NCBI GenBank assembly: GCA_034189385.1
Contig: JAXHVD010000005.1
Coordinates: forward strand, 32,001-96,000
Direction of reading: 5' to 3'
Origin: Thermodesulfobacteriota bacterium
GTDB lineage: Bacteria > Desulfobacterota > Desulfobacteria > Desulfobacterales > C00003060
DNA length: 64,000 nt
Shown here piece after piece: positions 1,859 through 19,153 of this stretch. The first letter of the stretch is position 1. Every line of letters starts with the position of its first letter. The notes under the pieces were generated by a model, which made no database searches, was not told where the DNA came from, and worked only from the letters and a program-made list of their open reading frames with translations. Position numbers and translations under genes: made by a program.

Positions 1859-1893
1859 AAAAAAGGGAGGCGGCCAAAACGGCCCCCTCCCTC
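1859..1893 (-). terminator. Rho-independent terminator of the Tyr/Pro-rich precursor gene
   Basis: Minus strand reads GGGAGGGGGCC-GTTTT-GGCCGCCTCCC followed by a T tract, about 25 nt after the stop. Confidence 0.8.
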
Positions 1894-1917: not shown

Positions 1918-2172
1918 TTACTCAGCGCCACCGCCCATTGCCGGCATTGCCCCGCCGGGAATGCCGTACGGGACCACAGGGTAGCAGGGATAGGGGAAAC
2001 AGGGGAAGTAAGGATAGCCCATGTAGAAGGGAAAACCGGGGTAGCAGGGATAGCCGGGGATGTACCCAGGGACATAACCCGGGCCGGGGTAACAACCACC
2101 TGCCACCTCACTCATAGCCTTGCCGTTTAGTTCCTTGTCCATTTCCAAATCCTTGATTTTGACCTTTTTCAT
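1918..2172 (-). CDS. Double-glycine-leader secreted peptide precursor with Tyr/Pro/Gly/Cys-rich core (84 aa)
   Basis: RBS AAAGGAGAAGGAAA-ATG; leader MKKVKIKDLEMDKELNGKAMSEVAGG; own sigma-54 promoter and terminator; C39 peptidase transporter nearby. Confidence 0.88.
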   Translation of the reverse strand: MKKVKIKDLEMDKELNGKAMSEVAGGCYPGPGYVPGYIPGYPCYPGFPFYMGYPYFPCFPYPCYPVVPYGIPGGAMPAMGGGAE

Positions 2173-2224
2173 TTTCCTTCTCCTTTCTTTTTGTTTTTTG
2201 CTGGCGTTTGGTTTACTGTTGGTC

Positions 2225-2241
2225 TGCATCCCCCGTGCCAA
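2225..2241 (-). promoter_or_regulatory. Sigma-54 (-24/-12) promoter
   Basis: TTGGCACGGGGGATGCA, near consensus with GG-N10-GC, about 50 bp upstream of ATG 2172. Confidence 0.88.
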
Positions 2242-2348
2242 CACCGTCGCCAATATTGGATGAACAGTGATAAGTATTTATCATTCAACATCAATTTTGA
2301 ATAAGGGCCTTTTGGGGGAAGCTCCGTATTTTCCAGGTCTCTAAATCT

Positions 2349-2400
2349 TGTTGCTTTTTTTGCAACACATCTGGCATGATCTGTTTGTTCACTGCCAACG
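2349..2400. promoter_or_regulatory. Paired upstream activator sites
   Basis: Palindrome TGTTGC-T7-GCAACA (2349-2367), 109 bp from the -24 box, and TGTTTGTTCACTGCCAACG (2382-2400), 33 bp further. Confidence 0.7.
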
Positions 2401-2653
2401 CTTCTGTTGAGTCGAAGCATTCTGTTGTCCCTTTGCTTGTGACAAGAAGAGTCAAAACCCCTTGATTTGGAGGGATGAAATGGCCATTTTGGGATTGTCT
2501 TTTCATTGAATCTCTGGTATTTGAGATTTTGGCAGTTTGACACTTTCAGAGCACCAGCAACCGTTTTTCCCATAAACAAACAAGTTGTGAAGATCTTGCC
2601 GCTTGGCCTGACAGAACATTCTTTGTGCTGTTCCGTGCCTAAGCGTTAAGGTG

Positions 2654-2772
2654 TTGAACCGAATAAGCGAGCGCATTCCCCGCTGCTTGCGGCGGGGTTA
2701 GCGAGTGTATAGTTAAGATGACAACATCCTTGCGGTGAAGATTCCCCGTGGCTTGCCGCGGGGAGGGTTCAA
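2654..2772. mobile_element. 119-bp non-autonomous miniature element (REP/MITE-like) with two GC-rich hairpins
   Basis: Terminal inverted repeat TTGAACC...GGTTCAA; hairpins CCCCGCTGCTTGCGGCGGGG (2678-2697) and CCCCGTGGCTTGCCGCGGGG (2744-2763). Confidence 0.6.
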
Positions 2773-2865
2773 TTCATCATTATTCGTGCTCGTGGCTGTA
2801 TGCCGTTGCATCGGGCGCCTCGTCAGTTCCCTGTGTCTTTCAATTGCATTGATCTGTGAGGTACA

Positions 2866-3549
2866 TTGAGAAGGCCCCTTTCCGTTGGATACTTGGCGCT
2901 CCTGCCGTCTATCATTGCCATCCTTGCCTCTGCAGCTATTGCCGAAGATCGATCTGAAAAAGAGATTTGGCAGCTATCCCCCGACTATGAGCTCATGAAG
3001 CCCAAAGTGATTGCGGTGGTTCCCATGGACAACTTCTCTTTGGAGCCCAACGTTGAGAAGGCCTTGTACCAGGAGGTCTATGAACGATTGAAGGTGAAGG
3101 GATACATGAGGATTGCGGCCGAAAAAGTAGATGAGGTCATGAAAGAGCTCGGTATTCAAACGCCTGGTCAACTGGCGGGGATTTCACTCGCCAGGCTTGG
3201 GAAAAAACTTAAGTGTGAGGCTGTGTTGATGGGGCAGATCGAGCAGTCTGGCACGATCCATAAAGGGATTTATGACGCTGTAGCAGTCTCTTGTTCTCTT
3301 AGGCTGGTGGACTGCGCCACGGGGAGAATGCTCTGGCAAACGGAGCAGTGGAGAGCCGCCCACAGACAGTGGCAGGTGGATCCGATTAATCTATTTATCA
3401 ATGTTGCCGCCCATGAAAAGGCCTCACGTGAAAAGAGAGTGGCCTGCCTCGTCCATGAGATGCTGAAGACATTGCCCCAGGGCCACGTCGATGTGCAAGT
3501 TGGCGACCTTTTAAATCAAGCCCAGGAGATCCCAGCAAACCAACCGTAG
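2866..3549 (+). CDS. Exported protein, DUF799/CsgG-like fold
   Basis: N-terminal signal peptide; IAVVPMDN...LKVKGY...AVLMGQI...SLRLVDCATGRMLW pattern typical of DUF799/LpoB/CsgG-like proteins. Confidence 0.65.
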   Translation: MRRPLSVGYLALLPSIIAILASAAIAEDRSEKEIWQLSPDYELMKPKVIAVVPMDNFSLEPNVEKALYQEVYERLKVKGYMRIAAEKVDEVMKELGIQTPGQLAGISLARLGKKLKCEAVLMGQIEQSGTIHKGIYDAVAVSCSLRLVDCATGRMLWQTEQWRAAHRQWQVDPINLFINVAAHEKASREKRVACLVHEMLKTLPQGHVDVQVGDLLNQAQEIPANQP

Positions 3550-3602
3550 AATAGTATGTTGGTACACCCCGCTTTTCGGACCGGTATGATCGGAGGAAAA
3601 AG

Positions 3603-5018
3603 ATGAAGGCTTCACTGGCAATCAGGTTCTCTCTATTGATGGTGACGGTCCTAAGTGCATGCTCTGTGGGGCCCCAATATGAACGCCCGAAGCTTGAGGA
3701 AAAGAAGGCTTGGGGTGAAACAGAAGCTGCCGAATTAGGGCCCTGCCGAGTCATACAGATGGATTGGTGGACGGGTTTTGGCGATCCTTATCTTAACAAA
3801 TTGGTCCAAGAGGCTATCTCAGGCAGTTTTGACTTGAAGATTCTGCTCGGACGTATCCAGGAAGCAGGTGCTACGATTAAAGGGGCTCGGGCGCAACTGA
3901 TGCCTTCTCTAGACTTGTCCACAAAGGCAGAGTTTAGTCGGGCGGAAGTGCCTGACTTCGGTGGCGGTCACACGGTGGCTGACTCTCAACAGGCCACCGG
4001 ACAGACGAGTTTGAGTTGGGAAATAGACATGTGGGGCAAGAAGAGGAGAGAGTATGCAGCAACCAAAGCTGAATATGAAGCCAGTCAAGCTGACTATCGG
4101 GCAGGATATCTAAAGCTGGTTTCGGAGCTGGCAATGGCCTATTTTCAGATCCGCCAGATTGATGAGCAGTCCCGTATGACGGACAGGTCCCATGGACAAT
4201 ACAATCAAATACTGACCATCTACCAAAACCAATACGCTGAAGGCCTTGTTCCTCAGTGGAAAGTGCTGCGGCAAGAGGCAGAAGTGAAAAGGCTGAATCA
4301 GGATTTGTTGGAACTTGAAAGGGTGCGAAAGAGGCTTGAAAACAGAATAGCCACTTTGTTGGGCCGGCCTGCAGGGGATTTGAAAATTCCCCGTGCCAAC
4401 CTGAGACAAAACCTGCGGCCCGTGAAGGTGCCTGTGGGCCTTCCCTCTGACCTTCTGTCCCGACGTCCGGACATTGTGGCAGCCGAATACCGCCTCATTA
4501 AGGCAACCCATAACGTAGGTGCGGCCGAAGCCGCCAGGCTCCCATCTTTTGGTCTGACCGGCTCTGGCAGCTTAGTGAGTGAAAGCCTCAAGGGGCTGCT
4601 CACGGGCACCTGGGCGCTGTCCATCGCACCAGCCGTGTCCATGCCGCTTTTTGATGGTGGCAGTCGCAAGGCTGACGTTGCTGCAAAACAAGCACGAGCA
4701 CAAGTAACCCAAGAGGTGTATCGCAAGACAGTAATGACAGCCTTTGAAGAGGTGGAGAACGCTTTGGTAAATCTGGAGAGTCGACAAAAGCAGCAGGCTG
4801 TCCTGAAGGAGAAGCTCGACGGGCTGAAACAGGTTCGATCTCAAACCACCGCCAAATTTGAACTTGGCTTGATATCCCAATTACAGGTTCTAGACATCGA
4901 GCGGGAGCTTTATGCAGCTGAGAAGTCGCTTCTGCAGATGCATCGTTACCTCTTGGATGATACCGTCTCTCTCTTTAAGGCCCTGGGCGGCGGCTGGGGC
5001 AAGGTCACAGTGAAGTAG
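3603..5018 (+). CDS. Outer membrane factor lipoprotein (NodT/OprM/TolC family)
   Basis: Lipobox LSAC-SVGP, WWTGFGDPYLNKLV, SWEIDMWGK, PSDLLSRRPDIVAAE, LFKALGGGW. Confidence 0.95.
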   Translation: MKASLAIRFSLLMVTVLSACSVGPQYERPKLEEKKAWGETEAAELGPCRVIQMDWWTGFGDPYLNKLVQEAISGSFDLKILLGRIQEAGATIKGARAQLMPSLDLSTKAEFSRAEVPDFGGGHTVADSQQATGQTSLSWEIDMWGKKRREYAATKAEYEASQADYRAGYLKLVSELAMAYFQIRQIDEQSRMTDRSHGQYNQILTIYQNQYAEGLVPQWKVLRQEAEVKRLNQDLLELERVRKRLENRIATLLGRPAGDLKIPRANLRQNLRPVKVPVGLPSDLLSRRPDIVAAEYRLIKATHNVGAAEAARLPSFGLTGSGSLVSESLKGLLTGTWALSIAPAVSMPLFDGGSRKADVAAKQARAQVTQEVYRKTVMTAFEEVENALVNLESRQKQQAVLKEKLDGLKQVRSQTTAKFELGLISQLQVLDIERELYAAEKSLLQMHRYLLDDTVSLFKALGGGWGKVTVK

Positions 5019-5056
5019 CGTGAGAAAGTAGAATTTTGACCGGAGACATTTTTCCT

Positions 5057-7108
5057 ATGAAAGTCATCCTGCAGGCCGAGCCAAATACGGGTATCCAAGA
5101 TATCGTCATCGAGGGCTTGCCTTTTGTGATCGGCCGCGGCGAAGGCAAGTTTTCGCAGTACGAAGAGCAATTCCCGGATCAGCTAAAGAAGCTTTCCAGG
5201 CGGCATGCCCGGATCTTCGTCGAGGGGGGCAGACTGTACATAGAGGACCTGGGCAGCACCAACGGCACTTTTTTGGGCGGACAACGGCTTCATGATCAGC
5301 CCATGCCTCTTGGAAATGGGGACGCTATAGCCTTTGGCGCTTTCTTTAAATACGTGATTTACATAGATCAACCTGAGACGAAATCGGCGGAAAGCCGGCC
5401 CGGCGGGGAAAGCACCATATACGTGTCGGACGCTTCCTCCTTCTTGGGCATGCTAGCCTCGGAGAAGAAAGCAGATCAGGGCCCTTCTTCAGGCGGCCGC
5501 CAAGAAACCTCCTCCCAATCCTCTATTCCGTGTGCGGGCACCCATTCGAAACTTAAGGACAAGAAAAGACTTTTTGCCGCCTTTATCGCTGAGTTCTGGG
5601 ACAAGCCCGGAGACGGCCGGAAACGAAAATGGTACTTGCTGGGTTTGGTCGGGGTCCTCTTGGCTGCAGGGGTTGTTTCAGTGGTCGCCCTCAGTTCGCC
5701 CGAACGGAAGTTGAAGAGACTAATGAAGCAACAGCGTTACACTGAGTGTGCTCAGGTGGCTGATGCAATACTGCGGGAGGATCCTCACGATGAACGCGTG
5801 TGTGATATCGCAACAGAGGCTCTCATAAAGGGCATTTTGCCTGACTGGATGGACAAATTGAAAAGGGCACGCTTCGCTGAGGCCCGGGAATTCCTAGCCT
5901 CAGCGGCATCACGAAACGAACACAATCGTGACGGCTTAAAAGCTATAGAGTTGTTGGTTTGGGTCACAGACCTTGAAGCGTTCTTTGCCGGAAGGAAGGG
6001 CGAAACACCTGTAACCATATACCGGGACGAGGAAAAGGTAGAGTCCTTGCTCAGTCGATGGACCAAGGACAAGAACTGCAACTGCTCTCTTCTGGACCAA
6101 ATGGCAAACCACCATCCTCCATTTGCCATTTACCAGAGACAGATACACAGCGATCTAAATGCACTGAAGACCTTGGAGACGATGCGTGTTGAGCCCACCG
6201 AAGAGCTCAAGGCGGCAATAGAAAGTCAATTGGATGCGGACCGGCCTGAGGCTTTGGTTGCAACTGTAGAAAACTTCAGACGAAAGTACCCAGAGATCGG
6301 CGGAATAGAGGCATTGCAGAAAGATGTGGCTGCCTATATTGCCCTCTGGAGAGCGGTGGAGTCAAAGGAATTGTTCAGGGTGTCCTCCTTGCTTGAAGAA
6401 GACCCTTATCAGACCAAGCCATTTGTGGACAAGGTCGCCCACATTCGTGAAAAGATCCTGCCCTCGCCCGCCGTCGTTGAGGCATACAGAAGGGCCAGAG
6501 AGGCCTGGTTGGGGGGGGCTCCCAAAAAAGCCATCGCGATCCTTCAACCCCTCGTCAACGAGAAATGGGGCGAACTGGCAGAGAGGAAACTGAAACACTA
6601 TCGTCAGGTTCTAAAGGACTTCGCTGCGGTGGAAGGGTCAAGAGACAGATTAGACTACGGTGTCCTCCTGCTCTCTTTTCATAATATCCTTATTCCAAGT
6701 GAGGACGAGGTTTTCTTGAAGTTGATAGAAAAGGATTACGAGAAGATTAGAACCGAAGAGTTGAAGAAGAGTCAGGCTTCATTCATGGAGGCGCAAGCAA
6801 AATGGGATGACTACCTAAAAGGTGGTGGGATTTCGGGGCTTCTTCGCCTTGACACAAAGGTGTCTGAGGAGTTTCGAAGAAAGGCAGGACTTCTGAGAAC
6901 GGCCTTTGAGGCTTTTTCGTCAGGTGCCAGCATATATGGTCTTCTAAACAGGGAGTTGCCCGATACGTGGAAGACCCTTGAGAAGACCATTCTTGATGAA
7001 GTCCAAATCCAACGACTACGTCTTGATGATCTCAGAAACGTATTGGACCCTGCTGTATCGTCAGAGAAGGTCAAATTGCTACCGAATCCATCAGAGAGGA
7101 AAGACTGA
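5057..7108 (+). CDS. FHA-domain membrane protein with large helical (TPR-like) C-terminal region
   Basis: FHA motifs VIGR, LSRRHA, DLGSTNGT; one hydrophobic helix (WYLLGLVGVLLAAGVVSVVAL); alternative TTG start at 5036. Confidence 0.85.
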   Translation: MKVILQAEPNTGIQDIVIEGLPFVIGRGEGKFSQYEEQFPDQLKKLSRRHARIFVEGGRLYIEDLGSTNGTFLGGQRLHDQPMPLGNGDAIAFGAFFKYVIYIDQPETKSAESRPGGESTIYVSDASSFLGMLASEKKADQGPSSGGRQETSSQSSIPCAGTHSKLKDKKRLFAAFIAEFWDKPGDGRKRKWYLLGLVGVLLAAGVVSVVALSSPERKLKRLMKQQRYTECAQVADAILREDPHDERVCDIATEALIKGILPDWMDKLKRARFAEAREFLASAASRNEHNRDGLKAIELLVWVTDLEAFFAGRKGETPVTIYRDEEKVESLLSRWTKDKNCNCSLLDQMANHHPPFAIYQRQIHSDLNALKTLETMRVEPTEELKAAIESQLDADRPEALVATVENFRRKYPEIGGIEALQKDVAAYIALWRAVESKELFRVSSLLEEDPYQTKPFVDKVAHIREKILPSPAVVEAYRRAREAWLGGAPKKAIAILQPLVNEKWGELAERKLKHYRQVLKDFAAVEGSRDRLDYGVLLLSFHNILIPSEDEVFLKLIEKDYEKIRTEELKKSQASFMEAQAKWDDYLKGGGISGLLRLDTKVSEEFRRKAGLLRTAFEAFSSGASIYGLLNRELPDTWKTLEKTILDEVQIQRLRLDDLRNVLDPAVSSEKVKLLPNPSERKD

Positions 7109-8475
7109 TGTCCCAAGAAAAACACCCAGAGGTTTTCGTGGACGCCGTGGAAGAGCACAGTGCGGAAGCCCTTGAAGTGCTCATGGAAAGGTCCTCTTTG
7201 TTAGCCCGGGGGATTATCTATCTGCTGATAGCCCTCTTAGCGTCGCTGTTTATCTGGTCTTTTTACGGCAAGGCAGATGTGATCATTAAGGCTAAAGGGC
7301 AATTGGAGCCGGCGTCTGAGGAAAGACGGGTCTATTCACCCACAAACGGTGAATTGATCGACATCTATGTGGCAGAGGGCATGCCCATATCCAAGAATGA
7401 CCTCCTGGCTCGCATCAAGGCGCCAGAAGCCATCAAGGCTGCGGCAGGAGCAGTGGAGGCAAAGATGAAACTTCAGGAAGCTGAGCGGCAAAAAGAGGTC
7501 TTTCCAGAGAAGAAGAAGATAATGGAAGAAGAGCTTGCCACCATAGCCAAACACATTGAGCAGAAAGAGAAGGAGTACAGTCAACTTAAGACAGAAGGAT
7601 TGCGGAACCTTTCGGAGAGCCAAAGACATAAACTAGAGGCAACGAGAACCAAGCTGGAAGAAGCAAGAAGCGAAAGAGATCTTGCGAAACGGACGGCGGG
7701 TACATACAAGCGCCTCTATGAGACGCCAGGCCATGGCGGCGTCTCCAGACAAGAAACGGAAAAGGCAGAAAGCACATACCTTAAGGCAAATGCCACGTAT
7801 GAGCGTTTGTTGACGGAGCTACAGAACCTGGAACTTGAGTTCAGCAAACAACATGCGGAAACGGGCAACAAGATTGACAAGACATACATTGAGCTACTGG
7901 GTATGCGTGTCAAACATGCAAACAAGAGGCAGGAAATCGCAAACGCGGAAAGCCGGATTGACGTCCAGTATCGCACGGCGCGGGCGAAGTGGGAGGCCGC
8001 TTCCCTGGTGAGTTTTGAGGACCTTGATCAAGAAACGCTAGTGATCCGTTCCCCTGTATCCGGGAAGATAACCCGGGTCTCCTTCAAGCAACAAGGAGAA
8101 AAGGTGGAAGCAACAAAAGCCCTCGTTTCCATCGCCCCGGCAGATGCCAGGGATATTCTGCGTGTTTCTATCTTGGACAAGGACCGTGGCTTCCTCAAGG
8201 TAGGCCAACCGGCAAAACTGAAGTTTGCTGCCTTTCCTTTTCAGCGCTATGGCTTCATACGGGGCAAACTGGAGTATATATCTCCCTCTGCAGAGCTCTC
8301 AAAGGACGGACAGCCGCTATACAATGGCCGGGTCAGTTTGGAACGTGACTATTTCATAGTCAACGGTGAGGAGATAAAACTGAGGTATGGCATGACTGCA
8401 GATGCGGAGATCATAGTTCAAAAGCGCAGGTTGATAGATCTGGCCTTGGATCCGGTGAGAAGACTCAAAGGCTAG
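7108..8475 (+). CDS. HlyD-family type I secretion membrane fusion protein
   Basis: N-terminal TM helix, lipoyl-like halves, long coiled coil, KLKFAAFPFQRYG, LRYGMTADAEI. Confidence 0.95.
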   Translation: MSQEKHPEVFVDAVEEHSAEALEVLMERSSLLARGIIYLLIALLASLFIWSFYGKADVIIKAKGQLEPASEERRVYSPTNGELIDIYVAEGMPISKNDLLARIKAPEAIKAAAGAVEAKMKLQEAERQKEVFPEKKKIMEEELATIAKHIEQKEKEYSQLKTEGLRNLSESQRHKLEATRTKLEEARSERDLAKRTAGTYKRLYETPGHGGVSRQETEKAESTYLKANATYERLLTELQNLELEFSKQHAETGNKIDKTYIELLGMRVKHANKRQEIANAESRIDVQYRTARAKWEAASLVSFEDLDQETLVIRSPVSGKITRVSFKQQGEKVEATKALVSIAPADARDILRVSILDKDRGFLKVGQPAKLKFAAFPFQRYGFIRGKLEYISPSAELSKDGQPLYNGRVSLERDYFIVNGEEIKLRYGMTADAEIIVQKRRLIDLALDPVRRLKG

Positions 8476-8664
8476 GGGCGGCGTGGACTGAAGGGTCGGG
8501 ATCTTACACAGTCAGCCCGACATGAATTGATCTGTGCCAGTGACCGCACTTTCACGGTCGTGGGATTCCATGTTAAGAAAGGAGGTGACCGTATTCCCGG
8601 GGGGAGGAATTTGACAGGAAAGGTAGCGCGCCTGAGTATTTATGGGTTCTTGAAGGAGGTAAAG

Positions 8665-9417
8665 ATGAGCACAGCGATCAAGATTAACGACGAGGTGGTT
8701 TCTGCAGAGCAATTTATCAATATCCTGAAAATGTCAAACGAGTTTCCTTTGCTGGCCGAGAAAGTTATCCGCGACAAGATAACGGTACAGGAGGCCAAAA
8801 AGAAAGGCATCAGTGTGTCCACCGAGGAGGTCCAGCAGGAAGCGGACGATTTCAGACGCGTTGCGGCCCTTCATCGGGCAAAGGATACGCAGGAATGGAT
8901 GGATCAGAGAGGGCTGACGCTGGATGAGTTTGAGATTTTTGTAACGGAGAGAATCTACAAGAAGAAGATGGTTGAAACCATCACGAGCGAGCAGTCCATT
9001 GAAGAGTATTTCAAGCTGAACTCGCCCAAGTTCGACAGTGCCGATATCAGGCACATCGTGGTGGACAGTGAGGCCAAGGCAAAAGAACTGATGTCTCTGC
9101 TGAGTGAAGACCCAGAGGGTTTTGGCGAGTTGGCCAAGGAGCACTCGCTTGACAATGAGACCAGAAAGACGGGAGGACAGATCGGAGGCTTGCGTCGGGG
9201 GGTGCTGCCCGATGAGGTGAGTGCCAAGGTCTTCAATGCATCTGCAGGAGATGTCGTCGGGCCCTTGGAGTTGGGCGATGGGTATTTCTACGAGATTATC
9301 CAGGTTACAGCCGTCAATCCTGCCAGCCTGGACGATTCCACCAAGGAAGAGATAGGTGAGTTACTTTACAACGACTGGCTGGAGGCACGTCTGCAAGAGC
9401 ACAGTGTTACGGTATAG
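8665..9417 (+). CDS. Parvulin (PpiC/SurA-like) peptidyl-prolyl isomerase without signal peptide
   Basis: RBS AAGGAGG; RHIVV...FGELAKEHSLD...TGGQIG...GDVVGPL rotamase motifs after a SurA-like helical region. Confidence 0.9.
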   Translation: MSTAIKINDEVVSAEQFINILKMSNEFPLLAEKVIRDKITVQEAKKKGISVSTEEVQQEADDFRRVAALHRAKDTQEWMDQRGLTLDEFEIFVTERIYKKKMVETITSEQSIEEYFKLNSPKFDSADIRHIVVDSEAKAKELMSLLSEDPEGFGELAKEHSLDNETRKTGGQIGGLRRGVLPDEVSAKVFNASAGDVVGPLELGDGYFYEIIQVTAVNPASLDDSTKEEIGELLYNDWLEARLQEHSVTV

Positions 9418-9775
9418 TTCGTTTCTGTCCCTATAAATCGCTCTTATTCCAATGAGCGGCTTTATGCGTGGGTATTGCGCCTGGGGCTTGAAAGGAACGG
9501 CTGTGATCCGCCTATGGTGGACTGACTTCGAGACTGAGGTCAGTGCTGATTCATAAGCTGTTTATACATGGGCAGTAGCTGGGTTTCGTGAGAAGAGGAA
9601 GGTGGCTGAAACCGTGGTCCTTGCAGGCAAGGGGGAGTTGCCGCTTTTTTTTATTCCGGGGCGCCCCCCTTTTACTTCATAAAGGTTGTGGTCCCCTTAC
9701 AATAGGTTTCTTTGAGTCCATGGCTTTGACTTGCCGGAGTACATTGGCCGGCCAGATTAAACAGGAGGCCTTTCA

Positions 9776-12700
9776 TTGACAGAGTCATCCATAGTAGACT
9801 TCCTTGCTAGCGTTGAGTTCTTCTCTCCTTTTATATATCGAGAACTGGAGCAATTGGCCGGATATGCCGAGTCGTTGCACTTCGAGTTTGGGGACACCAT
9901 ATGCACCTCTGGCGACACGGCCCAAGGCCTCTTCGTCATCAAGGCGGGGCGGGTGAGACTCTTTACCGAAGACAGGGGCAAAGAGAGGAGCATAGGGGTT
10001 CGCGAACCTGGGGACACCTTTGGCGAGGTCTCGGTTTTGGAAGAGCCAACGCTCGACTATTCGGCCCGCGCCTCTAGCAAGGTGGAGATCCTTTTCTTGC
10101 CTCGCCAGCCGGTCATGGATTTGTTGGCGAAAAACGAGGCAGCAAAGGGTTTTATCGCACGATATGTGGCCTTGAAGGTGAGCGGTGCTGTGGTGACCCA
10201 GCTTTTCAACCTTCGCTCCAAGGTGGACCGCGGAGAGATCGAAGAGATTATCAAGGGCATTGGCATTAAGCGCGTGAAGGCAGGAGAGAAGATCCTTGTC
10301 CAAGAGGGCGCTGAAGATCGACGGCTGTACATCGTGCGAGAGGGCAAAGTAAGTATTGTAAAGGAGGAAGAGGGTTCGGAGTATTCTTTAATGAGTCTGG
10401 GACCAGGGGAAGTGTTCGGAGAAAAGGCCTGCCTCCTTTATTCGACGCAGCCGGCTACGGCCGTTGCAGACACGGACAGTGTCCTGATGGCCGTGCCACA
10501 AGAGACCATCCACTTCATTCTGGAGCGTAATCCTGGCCTGCGGGAGGTGTTGGAGGAACGCATCCATTTCGCCGAGAAGGAATTGGAGCGGAGAAGAAAA
10601 GTTGCCGAGCGCAGGAAAAAACGTCTTCTCTTTGACATCAAGTCCAAGCCCAAAATGGGGGAGCGCATTATCAAGCGGTTTCCCCTAGTAGAGCAGGCCG
10701 AGGAAATGGATTGCGGTGCGGCCTGTCTTGCCATGATCTGCAAGTACTATGACATCCCTGTGACCCTGGGAAAACTGAGGGAGATGGCCAATGTGACCAT
10801 TGAAGGTGCTACCATGGAAAGCCTGGCACGTGTGGGTGAATCCTTGGGCTTTGCGACAAAGGGCGTCCGATGCACCTACAAATCCATGCTCAGTTTTGAG
10901 CTTCCCTTTGTAGCACACTGGGAAGGATATCACTACATTGTGGTGTACGGCATTTCCAAGTCCCATGTTTGGGCTGCTGACCCGGGGGTGGGGTTTAGGA
11001 AGATGTCCGTGTCGGAGTTTGAACAGGGGTGGACGGGCAATAACCTGTTGTTTTCCCCCACCGGGGCCCTCGCTCAGATCGCCGTTGAGCAGTCCCCCTG
11101 GCTTCGTTTTGTCGGCTATCTCAGTCCCTTTAAGAAGATCCTTCGGGACCTCATTTTTGCGTCCCTTATTGTCCAGTTGCTGGGCCTGGCCCCTCCTGTG
11201 ATCATACAGAACATCCTGGACAGGGTCGTGGTTCACCAGAACTATCACCTCCTCCATGTCATGATCGTGGGTCTGGCAATCACGATGATATTTAGCCAGG
11301 TCACGGGGTATCTCAGCGCTTACCTGTCAAATTTCATGATCCGCAAGATGGATTTCAACATGATGTCCCACTTCTATAAACATGTGCTTTCTCTGCCGAC
11401 GAGCTTTTTTGCCAAGCGGAAGGTGGGCGACATCATGGCCCGGTTTCAAGAAAATGACACCATCAGGCGGTTCATGACAGAGACCAGTATCAGGACCCTT
11501 ATAAGCACGCTGATGGTGTTTACCTATTTCATTGTCATGTTCATGTACAATGTAAAACTGACCCTTTTGCTACTCGCCTTTTTGCCGCCCATCATCCTCC
11601 TTACCCTCTTGGCCACACCCAAATACAAGGACTACGCCCGGCGCAGTTTCTATGCCGAAGCTGATGCCCAATCCCTTCTCGTAGAAACATTGGGCGGGGC
11701 AGAGACAGTGAAAGGGACAGGCATCGAGCGACCAATGCGCCTAAAATGGGAGAAAAAGTATGTCAAGACCCTGGACCTGCGTTATCGTTGCGAAATGTTC
11801 ACCAGCCTGGTGGGGACTCTGGGCCAAACGTTAAAAGCGGCCACGACGCTTACGCTATTGTGGGTGGGGTCCAGGATGGTTCTGGCCCAGGAGCTTACCA
11901 TTGGCCAATTGATGGCTTTTAATGCCCTTATCGGCAGCGTGATGACACCCCTCATGGGCCTCGTGGGGGTTTGGGATGAGCTTCAAGAAACGCTCATTTC
12001 CATGGAGCGGCTGGGCGACGTGCTGGAGCTAGAGTCTGAGCAGAAGCCAGAAGAGGTCCCCGCCAAAGTGGTGCTTCCTGACCTGAAGGGAGACATACGC
12101 TTCGAGAATGTCTATTTTCGGTATGGTGGCAAGGAAACCCCTTATGTGCTGGAAAACATCAACATGGACATTCAGGCCGATACGACAGTGGCCATTGTTG
12201 GGCACAGCGGTTCAGGTAAAACCACACTGGCCAAAATGCTGGTGGGTTTCTATCGGCCCAGTGAAGGGAAAATATTCGTTGATGGTTATGATATTGGCAT
12301 GCTCGATGTAGAGTACTACCGTGCTCAAATTGGCTACGTCATGCAGAGTAATCTCCTCTTTTCGGGAACGGTCTCTGAAAACATTGCCGTGGGTGAGCAG
12401 AATCCGGACCCGAGACGCATTGCCGAGGCGGCCAGACTGGCTGATGCCCATGGGTTTATTGGCAACTTGCCTTTGGGTTACGAACAGGTCGTTGGTGAAA
12501 GGGGAATAGGCTTGTCCGGTGGGCAGATTCAGCGCATTTGTATTGCCCGTGCCCTTTACCGTGATTCAAGATTGTTGATTTTTGATGAAGCCACATCTGC
12601 CTTGGACAGCGAATCTGAAAGTCATATCCAGATGAATATGCGAAAGATCCTCAAGGGCAGGACTGCCATTATCATCGCCCACAGACTGAGCACCGTCATG

Positions 12701-12835
12701 CATGCTGACAGGATACTGGTCCTCTATGATGGGGCTATTGTGGAGGAAGGAAACCATCAAGAGCTGTTAGAGAGAAAGGGCATGTACTTTCATCTTGTCC
12801 AGAAACAGATATCTTCGGGAGAGATTAAGTCATGA
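9776..12835 (+). CDS. Peptidase-containing ABC transporter: 2x cNMP-binding, C39 peptidase, ABC membrane and ATPase domains
   Basis: Two cNMP-like domains (PGDTFGEVS, PGEVFGEKA); C39 catalytic residues QAEEMDCGAAC, HYIVV, ADP; Walker A GHSGSGKTT, LSGGQ, DEATSALD. Confidence 0.95.
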   Translation: MTESSIVDFLASVEFFSPFIYRELEQLAGYAESLHFEFGDTICTSGDTAQGLFVIKAGRVRLFTEDRGKERSIGVREPGDTFGEVSVLEEPTLDYSARASSKVEILFLPRQPVMDLLAKNEAAKGFIARYVALKVSGAVVTQLFNLRSKVDRGEIEEIIKGIGIKRVKAGEKILVQEGAEDRRLYIVREGKVSIVKEEEGSEYSLMSLGPGEVFGEKACLLYSTQPATAVADTDSVLMAVPQETIHFILERNPGLREVLEERIHFAEKELERRRKVAERRKKRLLFDIKSKPKMGERIIKRFPLVEQAEEMDCGAACLAMICKYYDIPVTLGKLREMANVTIEGATMESLARVGESLGFATKGVRCTYKSMLSFELPFVAHWEGYHYIVVYGISKSHVWAADPGVGFRKMSVSEFEQGWTGNNLLFSPTGALAQIAVEQSPWLRFVGYLSPFKKILRDLIFASLIVQLLGLAPPVIIQNILDRVVVHQNYHLLHVMIVGLAITMIFSQVTGYLSAYLSNFMIRKMDFNMMSHFYKHVLSLPTSFFAKRKVGDIMARFQENDTIRRFMTETSIRTLISTLMVFTYFIVMFMYNVKLTLLLLAFLPPIILLTLLATPKYKDYARRSFYAEADAQSLLVETLGGAETVKGTGIERPMRLKWEKKYVKTLDLRYRCEMFTSLVGTLGQTLKAATTLTLLWVGSRMVLAQELTIGQLMAFNALIGSVMTPLMGLVGVWDELQETLISMERLGDVLELESEQKPEEVPAKVVLPDLKGDIRFENVYFRYGGKETPYVLENINMDIQADTTVAIVGHSGSGKTTLAKMLVGFYRPSEGKIFVDGYDIGMLDVEYYRAQIGYVMQSNLLFSGTVSENIAVGEQNPDPRRIAEAARLADAHGFIGNLPLGYEQVVGERGIGLSGGQIQRICIARALYRDSRLLIFDEATSALDSESESHIQMNMRKILKGRTAIIIAHRLSTVMHADRILVLYDGAIVEEGNHQELLERKGMYFHLVQKQISSGEIKS

Positions 12836-14100
12836 AAACGGGCTCTGTGGTATCCTTTGCTCGGCTCTTAGAGCGTATTGAGATTCTCCGTTCGGGCCTC
12901 CGCTGGGCCCCCCAGCTTGACCGTACGGGGGTCCAGAGGATCTTAAGGCAGGTGAACAAGTTACGCGAGGACGTCCTACTGCTTTCTGGGGTGGAAAGAT
13001 ACAAAAAGCGTATGCGTGAGAAGGCCCCGCCGAAGCCCAAGGCTGCTAAGAAGAGACTTCAGGCGCTCATGGACCGCAACTTTGTCTTTGAAGGGGTTTT
13101 TGGCGAAAACCCAAAGCTGCTGGAAGCCTTGGAAACAGTGGAAAGAGCTGCACGGACAGAGTTGCCCATCTTGATCGAAGGCGAGAGCGGCACAGGCAAA
13201 GAATTACTTGCCAAGCTCATCCACGCTGGAAGTGACCGGTCGGAGAAGACCTTTGTCTCCGTTAACTGTGGTGCCATCACCCCCAGTTTGCTGGAATCTG
13301 ATCTGTTCGGCCACGTCAAAGGGGCTTTCACGGGCTCTGTAAAGGACCGCAAAGGCAAGTTTGAGACCGCCAAAGACGGCATCATTTTTCTGGATGAGAT
13401 TGGTGAGCTTTCGGCGGAAAGCCAGGTCAAGCTCTTACGGGTGCTGGAAAGTGGCGAGATCCAGAGAGTCGGCTCAGATGAGGTCATTCGGGTAAACACC
13501 CGCGTCCTTGCAGCCACAAACCGCAACTTGTACCAGATGACGGCAGACGGGCAGTTCCGAGAGGACTTGTACTACCGTTTGAGCGTCATTTCCGTCACGT
13601 TACCCCCTCTTCGCGAGCGTACCGATGAGATCCCCCTGCTTATAGACTACTTCTGTGCCGAGGCATCGGAGAAGTTGAATCGTCCTGCTGTGAGGCTCTC
13701 TCCGCGACTCAGAAGATTTCTGCAAAAACACCCTTTTCCAGGAAACATCCGGGAGCTGCGAAACATCATCTACCGTGTAGCCTGTCTGGCCGATGAAGTG
13801 GCGGACCTAAGAGATCTGCCGGAGACCATACGCCCTTCGTCAGTGGGGCCCCAAGACGCAGTTGAAGGGCGGGCCCCAAGCCGATTTACTACCCTGGCCG
13901 AGGCCAGGAAGGCGGCTACCGACGCAGCGGAAAAAGAGTTTCTGGAAGAACACCTGACACAGACCCATGGAAACGTGACGCAGTTGGCCAAACACCTGGA
14001 GATGAATCGTTCCTACCTTCAGACGCTACTAAAGAGCCATGGGCTGCGGGCGAAAGATTTCAAAGGCAAGGCAACGTCTACAAAGAACTCTGAAAGATGA
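12832..14100 (+). CDS. Sigma-54-dependent enhancer-binding activator (AAA+ and Fis-type HTH)
   Basis: GESGTGKE, SDLFGHVKGAFTGS, FLDEIGE, FREDLYYRL, FPGNIREL, C-terminal HTH GNVTQLAKHLEMNRSYL. Confidence 0.95.
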   Translation: MKTGSVVSFARLLERIEILRSGLRWAPQLDRTGVQRILRQVNKLREDVLLLSGVERYKKRMREKAPPKPKAAKKRLQALMDRNFVFEGVFGENPKLLEALETVERAARTELPILIEGESGTGKELLAKLIHAGSDRSEKTFVSVNCGAITPSLLESDLFGHVKGAFTGSVKDRKGKFETAKDGIIFLDEIGELSAESQVKLLRVLESGEIQRVGSDEVIRVNTRVLAATNRNLYQMTADGQFREDLYYRLSVISVTLPPLRERTDEIPLLIDYFCAEASEKLNRPAVRLSPRLRRFLQKHPFPGNIRELRNIIYRVACLADEVADLRDLPETIRPSSVGPQDAVEGRAPSRFTTLAEARKAATDAAEKEFLEEHLTQTHGNVTQLAKHLEMNRSYLQTLLKSHGLRAKDFKGKATSTKNSER

Positions 14101-14122
14101 AGGGGCCCACAGGCCCCTTTTT
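14100..14122. terminator. Terminator hairpin between convergent genes
   Basis: AAGGGGCC-CACA-GGCCCCTT-TTT between the activator stop and the precursor stop. Confidence 0.75.
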
Positions 14123-14136
14123 GCTCTTTGTGACAG

Positions 14137-14364
14137 CTAAGCGCCCCAGCCGCCCCATGGCATGCCCCAGCCGCCCCATGGGTTTCCCCACCAGCCGGTA
14201 CCCCAGGAGGTGGAGCTGCTGCTTCTGCCGCCGCCGCCCCAGGGGGTCCACCACCAGCTCGAGCTGGAGCGCTGACTCCACCACCAACCGCCTGTCAAGC
14301 TCTTCAACGCCTCTTTGTCGAGCTCCATGTTCTTTTCCAGGTCCTTAACTTCAATGTTTGCCAT
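14137..14364 (-). CDS. Double-glycine-leader secreted peptide precursor with Trp/Ser/Gly-rich core (75 aa)
   Basis: RBS AAAGGAG; leader MANIEVKDLEKNMELDKEALKSLTGG aligns without gaps to the leader at 2172 (10 of 26 identical); own sigma-54 promoter. Confidence 0.9.
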   Translation of the reverse strand: MANIEVKDLEKNMELDKEALKSLTGGWWWSQRSSSSWWWTPWGGGGRSSSSTSWGTGWWGNPWGGWGMPWGGWGA

Positions 14365-14430
14365 GTTCTATCTCCTTTCTTCTGATGTTTGTTCAACTCG
14401 CTCTTTCTTGAGGATCCGTCTCTAGACGTA

Positions 14431-14447
14431 TGCACTGCTCATGCCAG
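14431..14447 (-). promoter_or_regulatory. Sigma-54 (-24/-12) promoter
   Basis: CTGGCATGAGCAGTGCA with GG-N10-GC, about 65 bp upstream of ATG 14364. Confidence 0.85.
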
Positions 14448-14557
14448 GTCGGGGTCTATCAGGCCATCCATCATGATAACGCTTTATAATTAATAGCTAA
14501 ATTGATGATGGAATCTGTCTTGCCTTGCAACCTATTGCAGCTAGTCCTTTGTTTTTT

Positions 14558-19123: not shown

Positions 19124-19153
19124 GACCGCCCAAGGGCAGGGGCGCTAAACGAG

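What the first reader, a model, noticed from the sequence alone, without database searches (positions are those of the whole stretch)
1918..14447. Sigma-54-controlled export system for double-glycine peptides with low-complexity aromatic cores and no tailoring enzymes
Seen: two short antisense genes bracket an operon for an OMF, an FHA protein, HlyD, a parvulin, a cNMP-C39 ABC transporter and a sigma-54 activator. Both have 26-aa leaders that align without gaps (KDLE-x3-EL-x3-A-x5-GG) but unrelated cores. Known: C39 peptidase ABC transporters cleave after GG and export through HlyD/TolC. Seen: no lanthipeptide, YcaO, radical SAM or obvious immunity gene in the operon. Inference: the products may be self-assembling matrix or amyloid-like peptides rather than classical bacteriocins, by analogy with the GG-motif EbfG proteins and PteB transporter of Synechococcus elongatus biofilms. 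I recall a similar gene set in Burkholderia genomes but cannot verify that here.
Basis: partly seen in the sequence, partly recalled or inferred. Interest (0 to 1): 0.92.

Follow-up and report, generated by a model that had tools for sequence, protein, structure and literature searches.

The report
Sigma-54 regulon of exported aromatic peptides
An uncultured bacterium carries a peptide-cutting export pump with its own gene switch and eight scattered small genes for tagged peptides rich in tryptophan, tyrosine, glycine and proline; this is one member of a widespread, apparently unstudied secretion system whose products may build material outside the cell or act against rivals.

Summary
Two small minus-strand genes (A 1918-2172, B 14137-14364) flank an operon for OMF, an FHA membrane protein, HlyD, a PrsA-like parvulin, a 2x cNMP-C39 ABC exporter and a sigma-54 activator. 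Their 26-residue GG leaders belong to eight paralogues in this genome. Six of the eight sit behind a strict sigma-54 promoter, of which the whole genome has 30. The genome has one C39 peptidase. Cores are under purifying selection (dN/dS 0.11-0.21). No conserved tailoring or immunity gene was found.

The cassette is not local. Of 80 related loci examined (Caballeronia/Burkholderia, Massilia, Aromatoleum, Gammaproteobacteria, Desulfobacterota), 43 keep all six genes, 74 keep exporter plus activator, and 69 carry leader-bearing small ORFs. A leader profile finds 1,507 protein clusters.

No curated family covers the peptides, and seven paper searches found no description of this cassette. Cyanobacterial long-PCAT/HlyD/SurA clusters (HetC, PteB/EbfG) are the nearest known. 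This scan noted related cNMP-PCAT plus parvulin modules on other DNA (e1-2498242, e1-4822078).

Export and GG cleavage are very likely. The role of the cargo (matrix or adhesive, bacteriocin, or signal) is open. A classical amyloid is unlikely for the 26%-proline peptide A.

The parts
1918..2172 (-). Cargo gene A: 84-aa precursor with a 26-aa GG leader and a 58-aa core (CYPGPGYV...; Pro 26%, Gly 21%, Tyr 19%, 4 Cys), core class III
   Evidence: Orthologues are 76-87% identical. dN/dS is 0.21 against L115.
2226..2240 (-). Sigma-54 type -24/-12 element (TGGCACGGGGGATGC) about 68 nt upstream of the ATG of A; AAAGGAGA ribosome-binding site at the gene
   Evidence: The motif is identical in orthologous loci L114 and L115.
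1859..1892 (-). GC-rich hairpin followed by a T run after gene A (intrinsic-terminator-like)
   Evidence: Read from the sequence. The consensus scan did not list it.
2866..3549 (+). GNA1162-like (PF05643) exported protein, first gene of the plus-strand block. Kept in the two closest loci but in none of the 80 distant loci.
3603..5018 (+). Outer-membrane factor, NodT type
   Evidence: TIGR01845, 368 bits, cut-off 210
5036..7108 (+). Fourth component: cytoplasmic FHA domain (about residues 9-111), disordered linker, one membrane helix (about 194-223), and an all-helical periplasmic domain (222-689)
   Evidence: mean pLDDT 82.7. Only the FHA domain finds PDB matches. Full-length homologues of 29-33% identity occur in proteobacterial loci.
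7108..8475 (+). HlyD-family membrane fusion protein
8665..9417 (+). PrsA/SurA-like parvulin, 250 aa counted from Met47 of the ORF that opens at 8527. It has no signal peptide, so it is taken to be cytoplasmic.
   Evidence: 76 homologues in the 80 loci are 230-275 aa long. Alignment.
9776..12835 (+). Exporter: two cNMP-binding domains, C39 peptidase, ABC membrane domain and ATPase (1019 aa). It holds the only C39 domain found in this genome.
12832..14100 (+). Sigma-54 enhancer-binding protein: 85-aa N-terminal region of no known family, AAA+ domain with a GAFTGS loop, and an HTH_8 domain. Its start overlaps the exporter's stop.
   Evidence: It co-occurs with the exporter in 74 of 80 loci.
14099..14120 (.). 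Hairpin between the convergent EBP gene and gene B (terminator-like on both strands)
14137..14364 (-). Cargo gene B: 75-aa precursor with a 26-aa GG leader and a 49-aa core (WWWSQRSSSS...; Trp 29%, Gly 27%, Ser 20%), core class IV
   Evidence: Family alignment with invariant P41, G43, G46, S51, S53 and G55.
14432..14446 (-). Sigma-54 type -24/-12 element (TGGCATGAGCAGTGC) about 82 nt upstream of the ATG of B
15141..16952 (+). Ser/Thr protein kinase with a DUF4384 domain. It is a possible partner of the FHA domain; its membership in the system is inferred only.
   Evidence: A kinase lies within 10 kb in 21 of 80 loci. A PP2C phosphatase lies next to the EBP gene in 54 of 80 loci.

Best explanation
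This is a dedicated type I secretion system of the peptidase-containing ABC transporter (PCAT) kind, together with its own sigma-54 regulon of cargo genes.

Proposed steps:
1. The enhancer-binding protein encoded behind the exporter activates sigma-54 promoters in front of eight monocistronic genes. Two flank the operon and six lie elsewhere in the genome.
2. Each gene makes a small precursor with a 26-residue amphipathic leader (M-x2-I-x-I-K-D-L-E-x3-E-L-D-x2-A-M-x2-V-x-G-G).
3. A cytoplasmic PrsA-like parvulin probably keeps these proline- and aromatic-rich precursors fit for export.
4. The C39 domain cuts after GG, and the core leaves through the ABC exporter, HlyD and the outer-membrane factor.
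5. Export is probably gated by a nucleotide ligand at the two cNMP domains, and by threonine phosphorylation read by the FHA domain of the fourth membrane component.

Shown here: the parts, their conservation, the promoters, the intact catalytic triad, and purifying selection on the cores. Inferred: every step of action.

For the cargo I commit to extracellular, unmodified, self-associating or surface-active peptides (matrix, adhesive or gel material), not classical immunity-linked bacteriocins. I put export and GG cleavage at about 0.9 and this cargo role at about 0.4. The confidence given below is for the whole statement.
For: Parts and families.

Peptidase: the catalytic Cys aligns with the Cys-to-Ala site of the PCAT1 peptidase entry 7n87, and His and Asp are conserved. 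Q307, C313, H386 and D402 are invariant in 5 orthologues.

One exporter, many substrates: one C39 domain in the genome against eight leader-bearing genes.

Sigma-54:
- 6 of 8 genes have the strict motif, of which the genome has 30.
- rpoN is present.
- The motif is unchanged in orthologous loci L114-L117.
- It stands before 9 of 12 leader-bearing ORFs found in other genomes of the same order.
- It stands before 66 (strict) or 96 (relaxed) of 148 first-in-run peptide genes in 80 distant loci. Background is 0.008 per 200 nt.

Cassette conservation in 80 loci: PCAT 80, PpiC 76, EBP 74, HlyD 51, FHA protein 49, OMF 46, all six 43.

Cargo:
- Leader homology across phyla: hhalign probability 97.4%.
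- Real, constrained genes: dN/dS 0.11-0.21.
- No tailoring enzyme in the operon, none beside the six remote cargo genes, and YcaO in only 3 of 80 loci.
- No consistent small membrane ORF beside the 8 genes.

Pointers to a material role:
- Composition.
- Conserved sets of core classes in related assemblies.
- A dedicated cytoplasmic chaperone-like protein.
- Asn-, Gln- and Val-rich cargo of about 66 residues in proteobacterial loci.
- Precedents: EbfG1-3 form amyloid and depend on PteB (passages of PMC4997328 and PMC9981879). Microcin MccAB1 forms fibres (abstract and section 7 of PMC13188072).
Against: - There are no expression, cleavage or secretion data. No RNA run was listed for this DNA.
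- The export operon of this window has no recognisable sigma-54 promoter.
- 2 of the 8 cargo genes lack the strict motif.
- The exporter was not found in any of the 36 other genomes of the same genus, 14 of them at least 90% complete. Cargo families are also very diverse. Both patterns are typical of competition genes.
- Related cassettes carry cationic Cys/Arg/Tyr-rich cargo that looks like antimicrobial peptides.
- No curlin or other known amyloid family matches.
- Peptide A is too proline-rich for a cross-beta fibre.
- The model of B has no confident fold, so it says nothing on assembly.
- In the parvulin, the position that I recall as the second catalytic His is an invariant Glu. Isomerase activity is therefore doubtful.
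Confidence: 0.45

Rival explanations
1. The cargo peptides are class II microcin-like bacteriocins. They would be exported in the same way and act on competing bacteria. Immunity would be encoded elsewhere, be intrinsic, or lie in small ORFs that I missed.
For: - The architecture is that of microcin systems: GG leader, PCAT, HlyD and OMF.
- The leader gives sub-threshold matches to Bacteriocin_IIc and ComC models.
- The distribution is patchy: the exporter was found in 0 of 36 other genomes of the genus.
- Cargo diversity is great.
- Related cassettes carry cationic Cys/Arg/Tyr-rich cores.
- Core class II of this genome is amphipathic and Trp-rich.
- Hidden immunity ORFs are known for microcins (PMC13188072 outline; passages of PMC12219008).
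Against: - No consistent small membrane ORF lies next to any of the 8 genes, and two loci have none at all.
- Cargo genes sit singly among housekeeping genes.
- Cores are under purifying, not diversifying, selection.
- The same core classes recur together in related assemblies.
- Net charge of the eight cores is -2 to +2.
- A dedicated chaperone-like protein and three layers of control are unusual for microcin loci. That last point is my own knowledge and was not tested.
Confidence: 0.3
2. The peptides are secreted signals (pheromone-like or developmental). A neighbouring Ser/Thr kinase or another receptor senses them, and this feeds back on the FHA protein or on the sigma-54 activator.
For: - HetC, a PCAT with a cNMP domain, is needed for heterocyst differentiation, and the authors propose that it exports a signalling peptide (passages of PMC10986499).
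- A membrane kinase lies next to gene B.
- A kinase is linked in 21 of 80 loci and a PP2C phosphatase in 54 of 80.
- The regulator and the exporter are translationally coupled.
Against: - Eight cargo genes of five unrelated core classes, each 39-58 residues, repetitive and costly (29% Trp), do not look like specific ligands.
- Up to 10 cargo genes per locus occur elsewhere.
- No receptor-type histidine kinase is conserved with the cassette: 1 of 80 loci matches the neighbouring kinase gene.
Confidence: 0.1
3. The peptides are RiPP precursors that enzymes encoded elsewhere modify before export. The invariant Cys right after GG, for example, could be a modification site.
For: - 5 of the 8 cores start with Cys, and this Cys is invariant in class III.
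- The leader shows weak similarity to TIGR04149 (rSAM-modified RiPP; E 0.0034 and 0.0015) and to TIGR04497 (ATP-grasp target; E 1.9e-4).
- The parvulin is a sub-threshold relative of TIGR04500, 'putative peptide maturation system protein'.
Against: - No tailoring enzyme is present in the operon.
- None lies directly beside the six remote cargo genes. One radical SAM gene lies about 2.2 kb from the C2 peptide gene, with other genes between.
- None is conserved in the 80 loci; YcaO is in 3 of 80.
- All matches to RiPP families are below their cut-offs.
Confidence: 0.05

Closest known systems
Cyanobacterial 'long' PCAT + HlyD + SurA-like rotamase clusters (groups I, II and VI of Wang, Fewer and Sivonen 2011), including HetC of Nostoc and PteB/EbfG1-4 of Synechococcus elongatus
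   Same: - A C39 ABC exporter with an N-terminal cNMP-binding region, an HlyD adaptor and a rotamase-domain protein.
- Small GG-motif proteins as cargo.
- A leader motif of similar flavour was reported for HetP-like proteins (KIxDLxYLE-x10-GG).
- Mature EbfG1/2 begin with Tyr/Pro-rich stretches, and EbfG1-3 form amyloid.

Seen as passages of PMC3140520, PMC10986499, PMC4997328 and PMC9981879.
   Different: - Here a sigma-54 activator is fused into the operon, and sigma-54 promoters stand before the cargo genes. From my own knowledge, cyanobacteria have no sigma-54.
- There is an extra FHA-membrane-periplasmic component.
- An outer-membrane factor is encoded in the operon.
- Cargo genes are scattered through the genome.
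- The leader is 3 residues longer between DL and GG than the HetP-like motif.
- Orthology of the exporter to HetC or PteB was not tested.
Class II microcin type I secretion (CvaAB-TolC with MccV and relatives; MccE492; MccAB1 of Acinetobacter baumannii)
   Same: - GG-leader peptides under 10 kDa, cut and exported by a PCAT with an HlyD-type adaptor and a TolC-type channel.
- Some microcins also form amyloid and promote biofilm (PMC13188072, abstract and section 7).
   Different: - Microcin leaders are about 15 residues (PMC13188072, section 7).
- Microcin PCATs lack cNMP domains (my knowledge).
- An immunity gene lies next to the microcin gene (passages of PMC12219008). None was found here.
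- Those systems have no parvulin, FHA protein or sigma-54 activator.
NHLP/Nif11 leader families with their three-gene transport cluster (TIGR03793/TIGR03798; TIGR03794, TIGR03796, TIGR03797)
   Same: - One transporter serves many precursor genes that share a conserved leader and have hypervariable cores, some far from the transporter (my knowledge of Haft et al. 2010; not read here).
- The exporter scores 545 bits on TIGR03796 and the adaptor 74 bits on TIGR03794.
   Different: - Both scores are below the family cut-offs (853 and 156 bits).
- The leaders are unrelated and short.
- There is no second ABC subunit and no modifying enzyme.
Threonine-phosphorylation control of type VI secretion (PpkA kinase, PppA phosphatase, Fha1) in Pseudomonas aeruginosa
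   Same: - A secretion machine accompanied by an FHA-domain protein, a Ser/Thr kinase and a PP2C phosphatase.
- The FHA domain here scores E 3e-9 on the T6SS-associated FHA family TIGR03354.
- This is a working analogy for gating, recalled from memory.
   Different: - A different secretion system.
- The FHA domain here is fused to a membrane protein with a large periplasmic helical domain.
- No PP2C was found in this genome with the query used.

Membership tests
Peptidase-containing ABC transporter (PCAT) | N-terminal C39 peptidase domain with catalytic Cys, His and Asp (plus the oxyanion Gln) | tested here: met
   PF03412, 131.5 bits. Q307, C313, H386 and D402 are invariant in 5 orthologues. 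The Cys aligns with the mutated Cys of PDB 7n87 and the intact Cys of 4s0f.
Peptidase-containing ABC transporter (PCAT) | ABC exporter membrane domain and ATPase, with an HlyD adaptor and an outer-membrane factor in Gram-negatives | tested here: met
   PF00664, PF00005, TIGR01843 and TIGR01845. 474 bits to PCAT1 4ry2 over residues 299-1008.
Peptidase-containing ABC transporter (PCAT) | Cleavage of the substrate after the double glycine, coupled to export | not testable with these tools
   This needs the recombinant C39 domain with precursor, or mass spectrometry of the secreted peptide.
Double-glycine leader peptides | Short N-terminal leader ending in GG (or GA/GS), with hydrophobic residues at -4, -7 and -12 (positions recalled from the literature) | tested here: met
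   Consensus of 53 leaders: MxxIxIKDLxxxxELDxxAMxxVxGG, which puts V at -4, M at -7 and L at -12.
Curated GG-leader or bacteriocin families (PF10439, PF03047, TIGR04149, TIGR04497 and others) | Score at or above the curated cut-off | tested here: not met
   - Peptides A and B: none in Pfam; in NCBIfam only B, on TIGR04149, at 17.2 bits against a cut-off of 25.
- 30 representatives against NCBIfam: none above cut-off.
- 36 against Pfam: none above cut-off.
Class II microcin | Small membrane immunity protein encoded next to the peptide gene | tested here: not met
   No consistent hydrophobic small ORF was found within 900 bp of the 8 genes. The hits are antisense overlaps of the leader region. 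A hidden ORF cannot be excluded.
Class II microcin | Antibacterial activity | not testable with these tools
   This needs an inhibition assay.
Sigma-54 dependent regulon | -24 GG / -12 GC promoter elements at the right spacing upstream of the genes | tested here: met
   6 of 8 cargo genes carry the strict motif, out of 30 such motifs in 8.27 million strand positions. The motif is conserved in orthologous and distant loci.
Sigma-54 dependent regulon | Bacterial enhancer-binding protein with an AAA+ sigma-54 interaction domain, and rpoN in the genome | tested here: met
   PF00158, 226.6 bits, with a GAFTGS loop. PF04552 gives one match at 207.9 bits.
Sigma-54 dependent regulon | Transcription start at the predicted promoter, dependent on rpoN and the EBP | not testable with these tools
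   No RNA run was listed for this DNA.
Cyanobacterial long-PCAT clusters (HetC/PteB type) | cNMP-binding domain(s) in front of the C39 domain, with HlyD and a rotamase protein in the cluster | tested here: met
   - PF00027 matches in two stretches.
- Domain 1 keeps FGE...RAS. Domain 2 has FGE...QPATA.
- HlyD and a parvulin are present.
- Orthology to HetC or PteB was not tested.
TIGR04500 (PpiC-related putative peptide maturation protein) | Score at or above 180 bits | tested here: not met
   106.5 bits. It is a relative, not a member.
Functional amyloid (curli, Fap, EbfG type) | Membership in a known amyloid subunit family, or cross-beta fibrils | tested here: not met
   - No Curlin_rpt or other amyloid family appears among 36 peptides at E up to 1.
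- Fibril formation cannot be tested here.
- Peptide A's core is 26% Pro.
RiPP biosynthetic cluster | Tailoring enzyme co-located and co-conserved with the precursor | tested here: not met
   None is present in the operon, none beside the six remote cargo genes, and YcaO occurs in only 3 of 80 loci.

The most novel reading that the evidence does not exclude
The cassette comprises a cNMP-gated PCAT, a cytoplasmic PrsA-like chaperone, an FHA-membrane-periplasmic component and a dedicated sigma-54 activator, often with a PP2C phosphatase and a Ser/Thr kinase. Its cargo leader family holds at least 1,500 clusters. On the most novel reading, this is an undescribed, signal-gated pathway by which Gram-negative bacteria build extracellular material from small self-associating proteins. 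The material would be Trp/Gly and Tyr/Pro/Gly 'elastomer-like' peptides in Desulfobacterota and Asn/Gln-rich beta-prone peptides in Proteobacteria. That would make it a further route to fibres or gels beside curli and Fap.
Probability: 0.3. Interest if true: 0.85.

Novelty: new variant of a known kind. Interest (0 to 1): 0.7.

Why it matters
PCAT systems are known as exporters of bacteriocins and pheromones. The cyanobacterial HetC and PteB cases hint at wider roles, but the substrate of HetC is still unknown (PMC10986499).

This locus gives a version in which the substrates can be read from the genome. A distinctive leader plus a sigma-54 promoter marks every cargo gene, even far from the exporter. 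That makes cargo discovery, regulon mapping and gating by nucleotides and phosphorylation directly testable in cultured carriers. Record titles name Desulfonema magnum, Caballeronia species, Paucimonas lemoignei and Aromatoleum toluolicum.

The cargo itself is unusual: 29% tryptophan in one peptide and 26% proline with 19% tyrosine in another. It could be of interest as a natural self-associating or adhesive peptide material, or as a new antimicrobial class.

Tried and rejected
- **Spurious ORFs.** Rejected on orthologues, purifying selection, ribosome-binding sites, promoters and terminators.
- **Lipoprotein signal.** I considered reading the 'GGC' junction as a lipobox. The leader is charged, not hydrophobic, so I rejected this.
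- **FHA protein against genome contigs.** No relative found. The N-terminal exporter profile then found 262.
- **Peptide alignment A1 for the metagenome scan.** The class III alignment A3 was used instead and gave 6 loci.
- **Expression.** No RNA holder was listed for window 5000-14900. DNA holders only, in marine and marine-sediment metagenomes.
- **Complex prediction, parvulin with precursor A.** No verdict (score 0.18, mark 0.32).
- **AlphaFold of peptide B with 13 homologues.** Mean pLDDT 48.6. The leader is modelled as a helix and the core has no structure. This is uninformative on assembly.
- **Foldseek of the FHA-protein model.** Only the FHA domain matches. The periplasmic helical domain has no clear PDB match. 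VIA searches were not run.
- **ESM Atlas.** The best feature score for B was 0.82 ('putative Bacteriocin'), within the range the tool gives for shuffled proteins. Nothing was found for A.
- **Shared upstream activator site.** None was found among the 8 promoters beyond the promoter and the ribosome-binding site.
- **Core homology between class IV/V and the proteobacterial 'APWVYGWI' cargo.** Only the leader aligns.
- **PLSDB annotation of a Caballeronia replicon.** It holds no features for the region.
- **Synteny of a remote cargo gene in congeners.** Abandoned, because the flanking aminoacyl-tRNA synthetase is only 41-60% identical there.
- **Paper searches**. None returned a description of this cassette. 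The library lacks most subscription journals, so this is not proof that none exists.

Full report
**What is in the window.**
On the plus strand, 2866-14100 encodes in order:
- a GNA1162-like exported protein (PF05643);
- a NodT-type outer-membrane factor (TIGR01845, 368 bits);
- a 690-residue FHA-domain protein;
- an HlyD-family adaptor;
- a parvulin;
- a 1019-residue protein with two cNMP-binding domains, a C39 peptidase, an ABC membrane domain and an ATPase;
- a sigma-54 enhancer-binding protein whose start overlaps the exporter's stop.

Two small minus-strand genes flank this block.
- A (2172 to 1918) encodes 84 residues.
- B (14364 to 14137) encodes 75 residues.
- Both have a strong AAAGGAGA-type ribosome-binding site and a hairpin with a T run behind them.

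**The small genes are real and belong to a family.**
- A profile of the leaders finds eight ORFs in the 4.13-Mb assembly, on seven contigs, at E 6.6e-16 to 9.7e-10. The next ORF scores E = 12.
- The cores fall into five classes:
  - I: CPDPNN...RYPTIPSWLWGML, with a variant Ib;
  - II: CFYPSPLG...WWRGAYWLGL;
  - III: peptide A;
  - IV: peptide B and a paralogue;
  - V: FWGWGY..., alignable with IV.
- A search of 5.8 billion proteins gave 41 hits among 279 candidates. Three are this genome's own. All others are unnamed or 'hypothetical'. The named ones come from MAGs labelled Thermodesulfobacteriota, and the same core classes recur.
- An orthologous metagenome locus (L115; FHA protein 72% and OMF 84% identical) keeps the order histidine kinase, peptide A, GNA1162-like gene, OMF, FHA protein, HlyD.
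- dN/dS is 0.21 for A against L115 (core 0.18), 0.16 for the two class I paralogues, and 0.11 for class II against L116.
- Composition: the core of B is 29% Trp, 27% Gly and 20% Ser. The core of A is 26% Pro, 21% Gly and 19% Tyr, with four Cys.
- Only 4 of the 8 cores are low-complexity and aromatic.

**Sigma-54 control.**
- A loose TGGCAC-N5-TTGC search is not enriched in the window (71 hits, 69.7 expected). Two of its hits lie 68 and 82 nt upstream of the ATGs of A and B.
- The strict form TGGCA[CT]-N5-NTGCA occurs only 30 times on both strands of the whole genome. Six of those precede six of the eight cargo genes at -68 to -82.
- The genome has one rpoN.
- The motif is unchanged in the orthologous loci L114-L117.
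- It stands before 9 of 12 leader-bearing ORFs found in other genomes of the same order.
- In 80 distant loci it stands before 66 (strict) or 96 (relaxed) of 148 first-in-run peptide genes, at -64 to -125. Background is 0.008 per 200 nt.
- In this window the export operon itself shows no such promoter. In several gammaproteobacterial loci the OMF gene does.
- I found no shared upstream activator site.

**One exporter for all eight.**
- The genome holds a single C39 domain, the one in the window.
- Its Gln, Cys, His and Asp are invariant among five orthologues.
- The Cys aligns with the Cys that is mutated to Ala in the PCAT1 peptidase entry 7n87.
- The rest of the protein aligns with PCAT1 over residues 299-1008 at 474 bits.
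- The six remote cargo genes stand singly among unrelated genes: amino-acid ABC transport, an OmpA-like gene, a HAD hydrolase, asparagine synthase, PilZ proteins, a cyclophilin-FKBP fusion, a beta-CASP RNase and a tRNA synthetase.
- They have no transporter and no tailoring enzyme beside them. One radical SAM gene lies about 2.2 kb from one of them, with other genes between.
- No consistent small membrane ORF of the immunity type lies within 900 bp of any of the eight.

**The accessory proteins.**
- Parvulin:
  - It most likely starts at Met47 of its ORF. 76 homologues in the 80 loci are 230-275 residues long, and it has no signal peptide.
  - It resembles the foldases PrsA and SurA over both the chaperone and the parvulin parts (5htf, E 1.7e-8).
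  - It is a sub-threshold relative of TIGR04500 (106.5 bits, cut-off 180).
  - At the position that I recall as the second catalytic His of parvulins, all 16 aligned sequences have Glu.
- FHA protein:
  - It models with mean pLDDT 82.7 as an FHA domain, a disordered linker, one membrane helix and a 470-residue all-helical periplasmic domain.
  - Only the FHA domain finds solved relatives.
- cNMP domains: the first keeps the FGE...RAS signature, and the second has lost the Arg.
- A Ser/Thr kinase gene follows gene B.

**The cassette elsewhere.**
- The exporter was not found in any of 36 other genomes of the same genus, 14 of them at least 90% complete. The full-length FHA protein was not found in 40 relatives.
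- In the same order, four genomes (handles G169, G119, G288, G069) carry OMF, a homologue of the FHA protein with or without its FHA domain, HlyD, exporter (58-74% identical) and EBP. The parvulin was matched in three of the four. Leader-bearing genes lie nearby or, in G169, about 1 Mb away.
- A profile of the exporter's first 440 residues found 262 relatives among species-representative genomes. The best 80 loci are, by their record titles, mostly Caballeronia/Burkholderia, Massilia, Paucimonas, Duganella and Herbaspirillum. The list also includes Aromatoleum toluolicum, Desulfonema magnum, a Desulfatirhabdium MAG and many gammaproteobacterial MAGs.
- Counts in these 80 loci:

| Component | Loci of 80 |
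|---|---|
| PCAT | 80 |
| PpiC | 76 |
| EBP | 74 |
| HlyD | 51 |
| FHA protein | 49 (45 including the FHA domain) |
| OMF | 46 |
| All six | 43 |
| Ser/Thr kinase | 21 |
| PP2C phosphatase next to the EBP | 54 |
| GNA1162-like gene | 0 |

**Cargo elsewhere.**
- The leader profile hits 228 small ORFs in 69 of the 80 loci. The median is 2 and the maximum 10 per locus. Median core length is 66 residues.
- Most cores are rich in Asn, Ala, Val, Gly, Ser and Gln.
- One family (APWV[YF]GWI.P[FY]...QMINQFQ) is present in 43 of 80 loci. It occupies the slot antisense behind the EBP/PP2C genes, the same slot as peptide B.
- Short Arg-rich peptides occur in 26 of 80 loci.
- A Desulfatirhabdium MAG has Cys/Tyr/Arg-rich cores, and a metagenome locus has an Arg/Tyr/Thr-rich core.
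- Between class IV/V and the APWV family only the leader aligns (26 columns, probability 97.4%).
- A 30-column profile of 53 leaders finds 1,507 representatives at E up to 0.001 among 1.84 billion. Nearly all of the best 150 are 49-140 residues long with the match at the N-terminus.
- No NCBIfam or Pfam model reaches its cut-off on any of the peptides tested: 30 and 36 representatives.
- YcaO occurs in 3 of 80 loci. No other tailoring enzyme is conserved.

**How it most likely works.**
- The EBP switches on the sigma-54 promoters of the cargo genes.
- The precursors are held by the cytoplasmic PrsA-like protein.
- The C39 domain removes the leader after GG.
- The core is expelled through the ABC exporter, HlyD and the OMF.
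- The cNMP domains and the FHA domain offer two further control points. HetC's cNMP domain binds ppGpp in vitro (passages of PMC10986499). Kinase, phosphatase and FHA control of type VI secretion is a recalled analogy.
- All of this is inference from parts. Nothing here shows expression, cleavage or secretion.

**What the cargo does.**
- For a structural or adhesive, self-associating role:
  - the composition (Trp/Gly/Ser and Tyr/Pro/Gly repeats recall eukaryotic elastomeric and aromatic-glycine low-complexity proteins, from memory);
  - conserved sets of classes under purifying selection;
  - no immunity genes;
  - a dedicated chaperone-like protein;
  - heavy regulation;
  - the EbfG and MccAB1 precedents.
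- For a bacteriocin role:
  - the architecture;
  - the patchy distribution;
  - the diversity of cargo;
  - the cationic cores in related cassettes.
- The two roles are not exclusive, as MccAB1 shows.
- A classical amyloid is unlikely for A because of its proline content. For B nothing can be said (pLDDT 48.6).
- My odds: material 0.4, bacteriocin 0.3, signal 0.1, RiPP 0.05, other 0.15.

**Comparison with what is known, and novelty.**
- The transport core is a PCAT type I system.
- The combination of long PCAT, HlyD and rotamase was catalogued in cyanobacteria in 2011 (passages of PMC3140520). Two members have phenotypes: HetC and PteB.
- Two earlier notes of this scan describe cNMP-PCAT plus parvulin modules in other phyla (e1-2498242 and e1-4822078).
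- As far as seven searches of the held library show, the following are not in print:
  - the six-gene cassette with a dedicated sigma-54 activator and an FHA-membrane-periplasmic component;
  - the frequent PP2C and kinase pair;
  - the leader family;
  - the marking of dispersed cargo genes by sigma-54 promoters;
  - the aromatic cargo classes.
- The library lacks most subscription journals, and I read supplements of no paper.
- I rate it a new variant of a known kind, with interest 0.7.

Noticed in passing
window 1435-1569 (-), promoter 1606-1620 (-): A conserved 45-codon ORF (MKNFLHHNLNALHVY...) sits just downstream of gene A on the same strand. It has its own strict sigma-54 motif and ribosome-binding site. 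It is 86-91% identical in loci L114 and L115, mostly through third-position changes. Three paralogues (58-68% identical) lie on contig C62. It has no GG leader and no Pfam match. It may be a further member of the regulon.
   Followed up: partly
window 14875-14889 (+) and 15141-19882 (+): A sigma-54-like motif (TGGCACGGTAGATGC) lies about 250 nt upstream of a gene row: Ser/Thr kinase with DUF4384, a 694-residue caspase-domain protein with two Glucodextran_B-like domains, and a CsgG-like protein (PF03783, E 2.8e-10). Together with the GNA1162-like gene at 2866-3549, curli-type periplasmic or outer-membrane families stand on both sides of the cassette.
   Followed up: partly
window 9417-9776: A 359-nt gap separates the parvulin gene from the exporter gene. 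It holds a terminator-like hairpin (9626-9642) and a sigma-70-like promoter (9676-9703), so exporter and EBP may form their own transcription unit. In proteobacterial loci the two genes are nearly contiguous. No further GG-leader ORF lies in the gap.
   Followed up: partly
window about 2690-2790 (read on the minus strand): Two similar GC-rich hairpin-forming stretches (ccccgcggcaagccacgggg and ccccgccgcaagcagcgggg) lie in the 694-nt divergent intergenic region between gene A and the operon. The repeat finder did not report them at its settings.
   Followed up: no
window 1979-2053 and 14142-14258: Short direct DNA repeats lie inside both core-coding regions: three 15-nt copies in A and three 33-nt copies in B. 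This fits cores that grew by internal duplication.
   Followed up: no
L070-L085 at about 8600-8800 (+), e.g. L083 from 8633: In Massilia-type loci a strict sigma-54 motif directly upstream of the parvulin gene precedes a small ORF with a longer leader variant (MKTLVI.DLA...SLSREEMK.VQGG) and a conserved core (RAISVLVDGRPGGVVDDFQL.MAIFKGDIGV). My leader profile missed it in most of these loci.
   Followed up: no
L067-L098, e.g. L070:17700-17894 (-): Short Arg-rich GG-leader peptides (cores under 50 residues) occur in 26 of 80 loci. In the largest cluster of them (15 members in 15 loci) none has a sigma-54 motif of its own within 200 nt.
   Followed up: no
L097:1282-3516 (+): In the Aromatoleum toluolicum locus an FHA-GAF-HD-GYP-type protein precedes the OMF gene (also matched in L064). 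This hints at a link to cyclic-nucleotide turnover.
   Followed up: no
window 22248-33058 (+): A second tripartite exporter (OEP, HlyD-like, MacB-type ABC ATPase and permease) is followed by a glycosyltransferase, a B12-binding radical SAM enzyme, a carbamoyltransferase and a PMT_2-like transferase. This lies 8-19 kb from the cassette and is probably unrelated to it.
   Followed up: no
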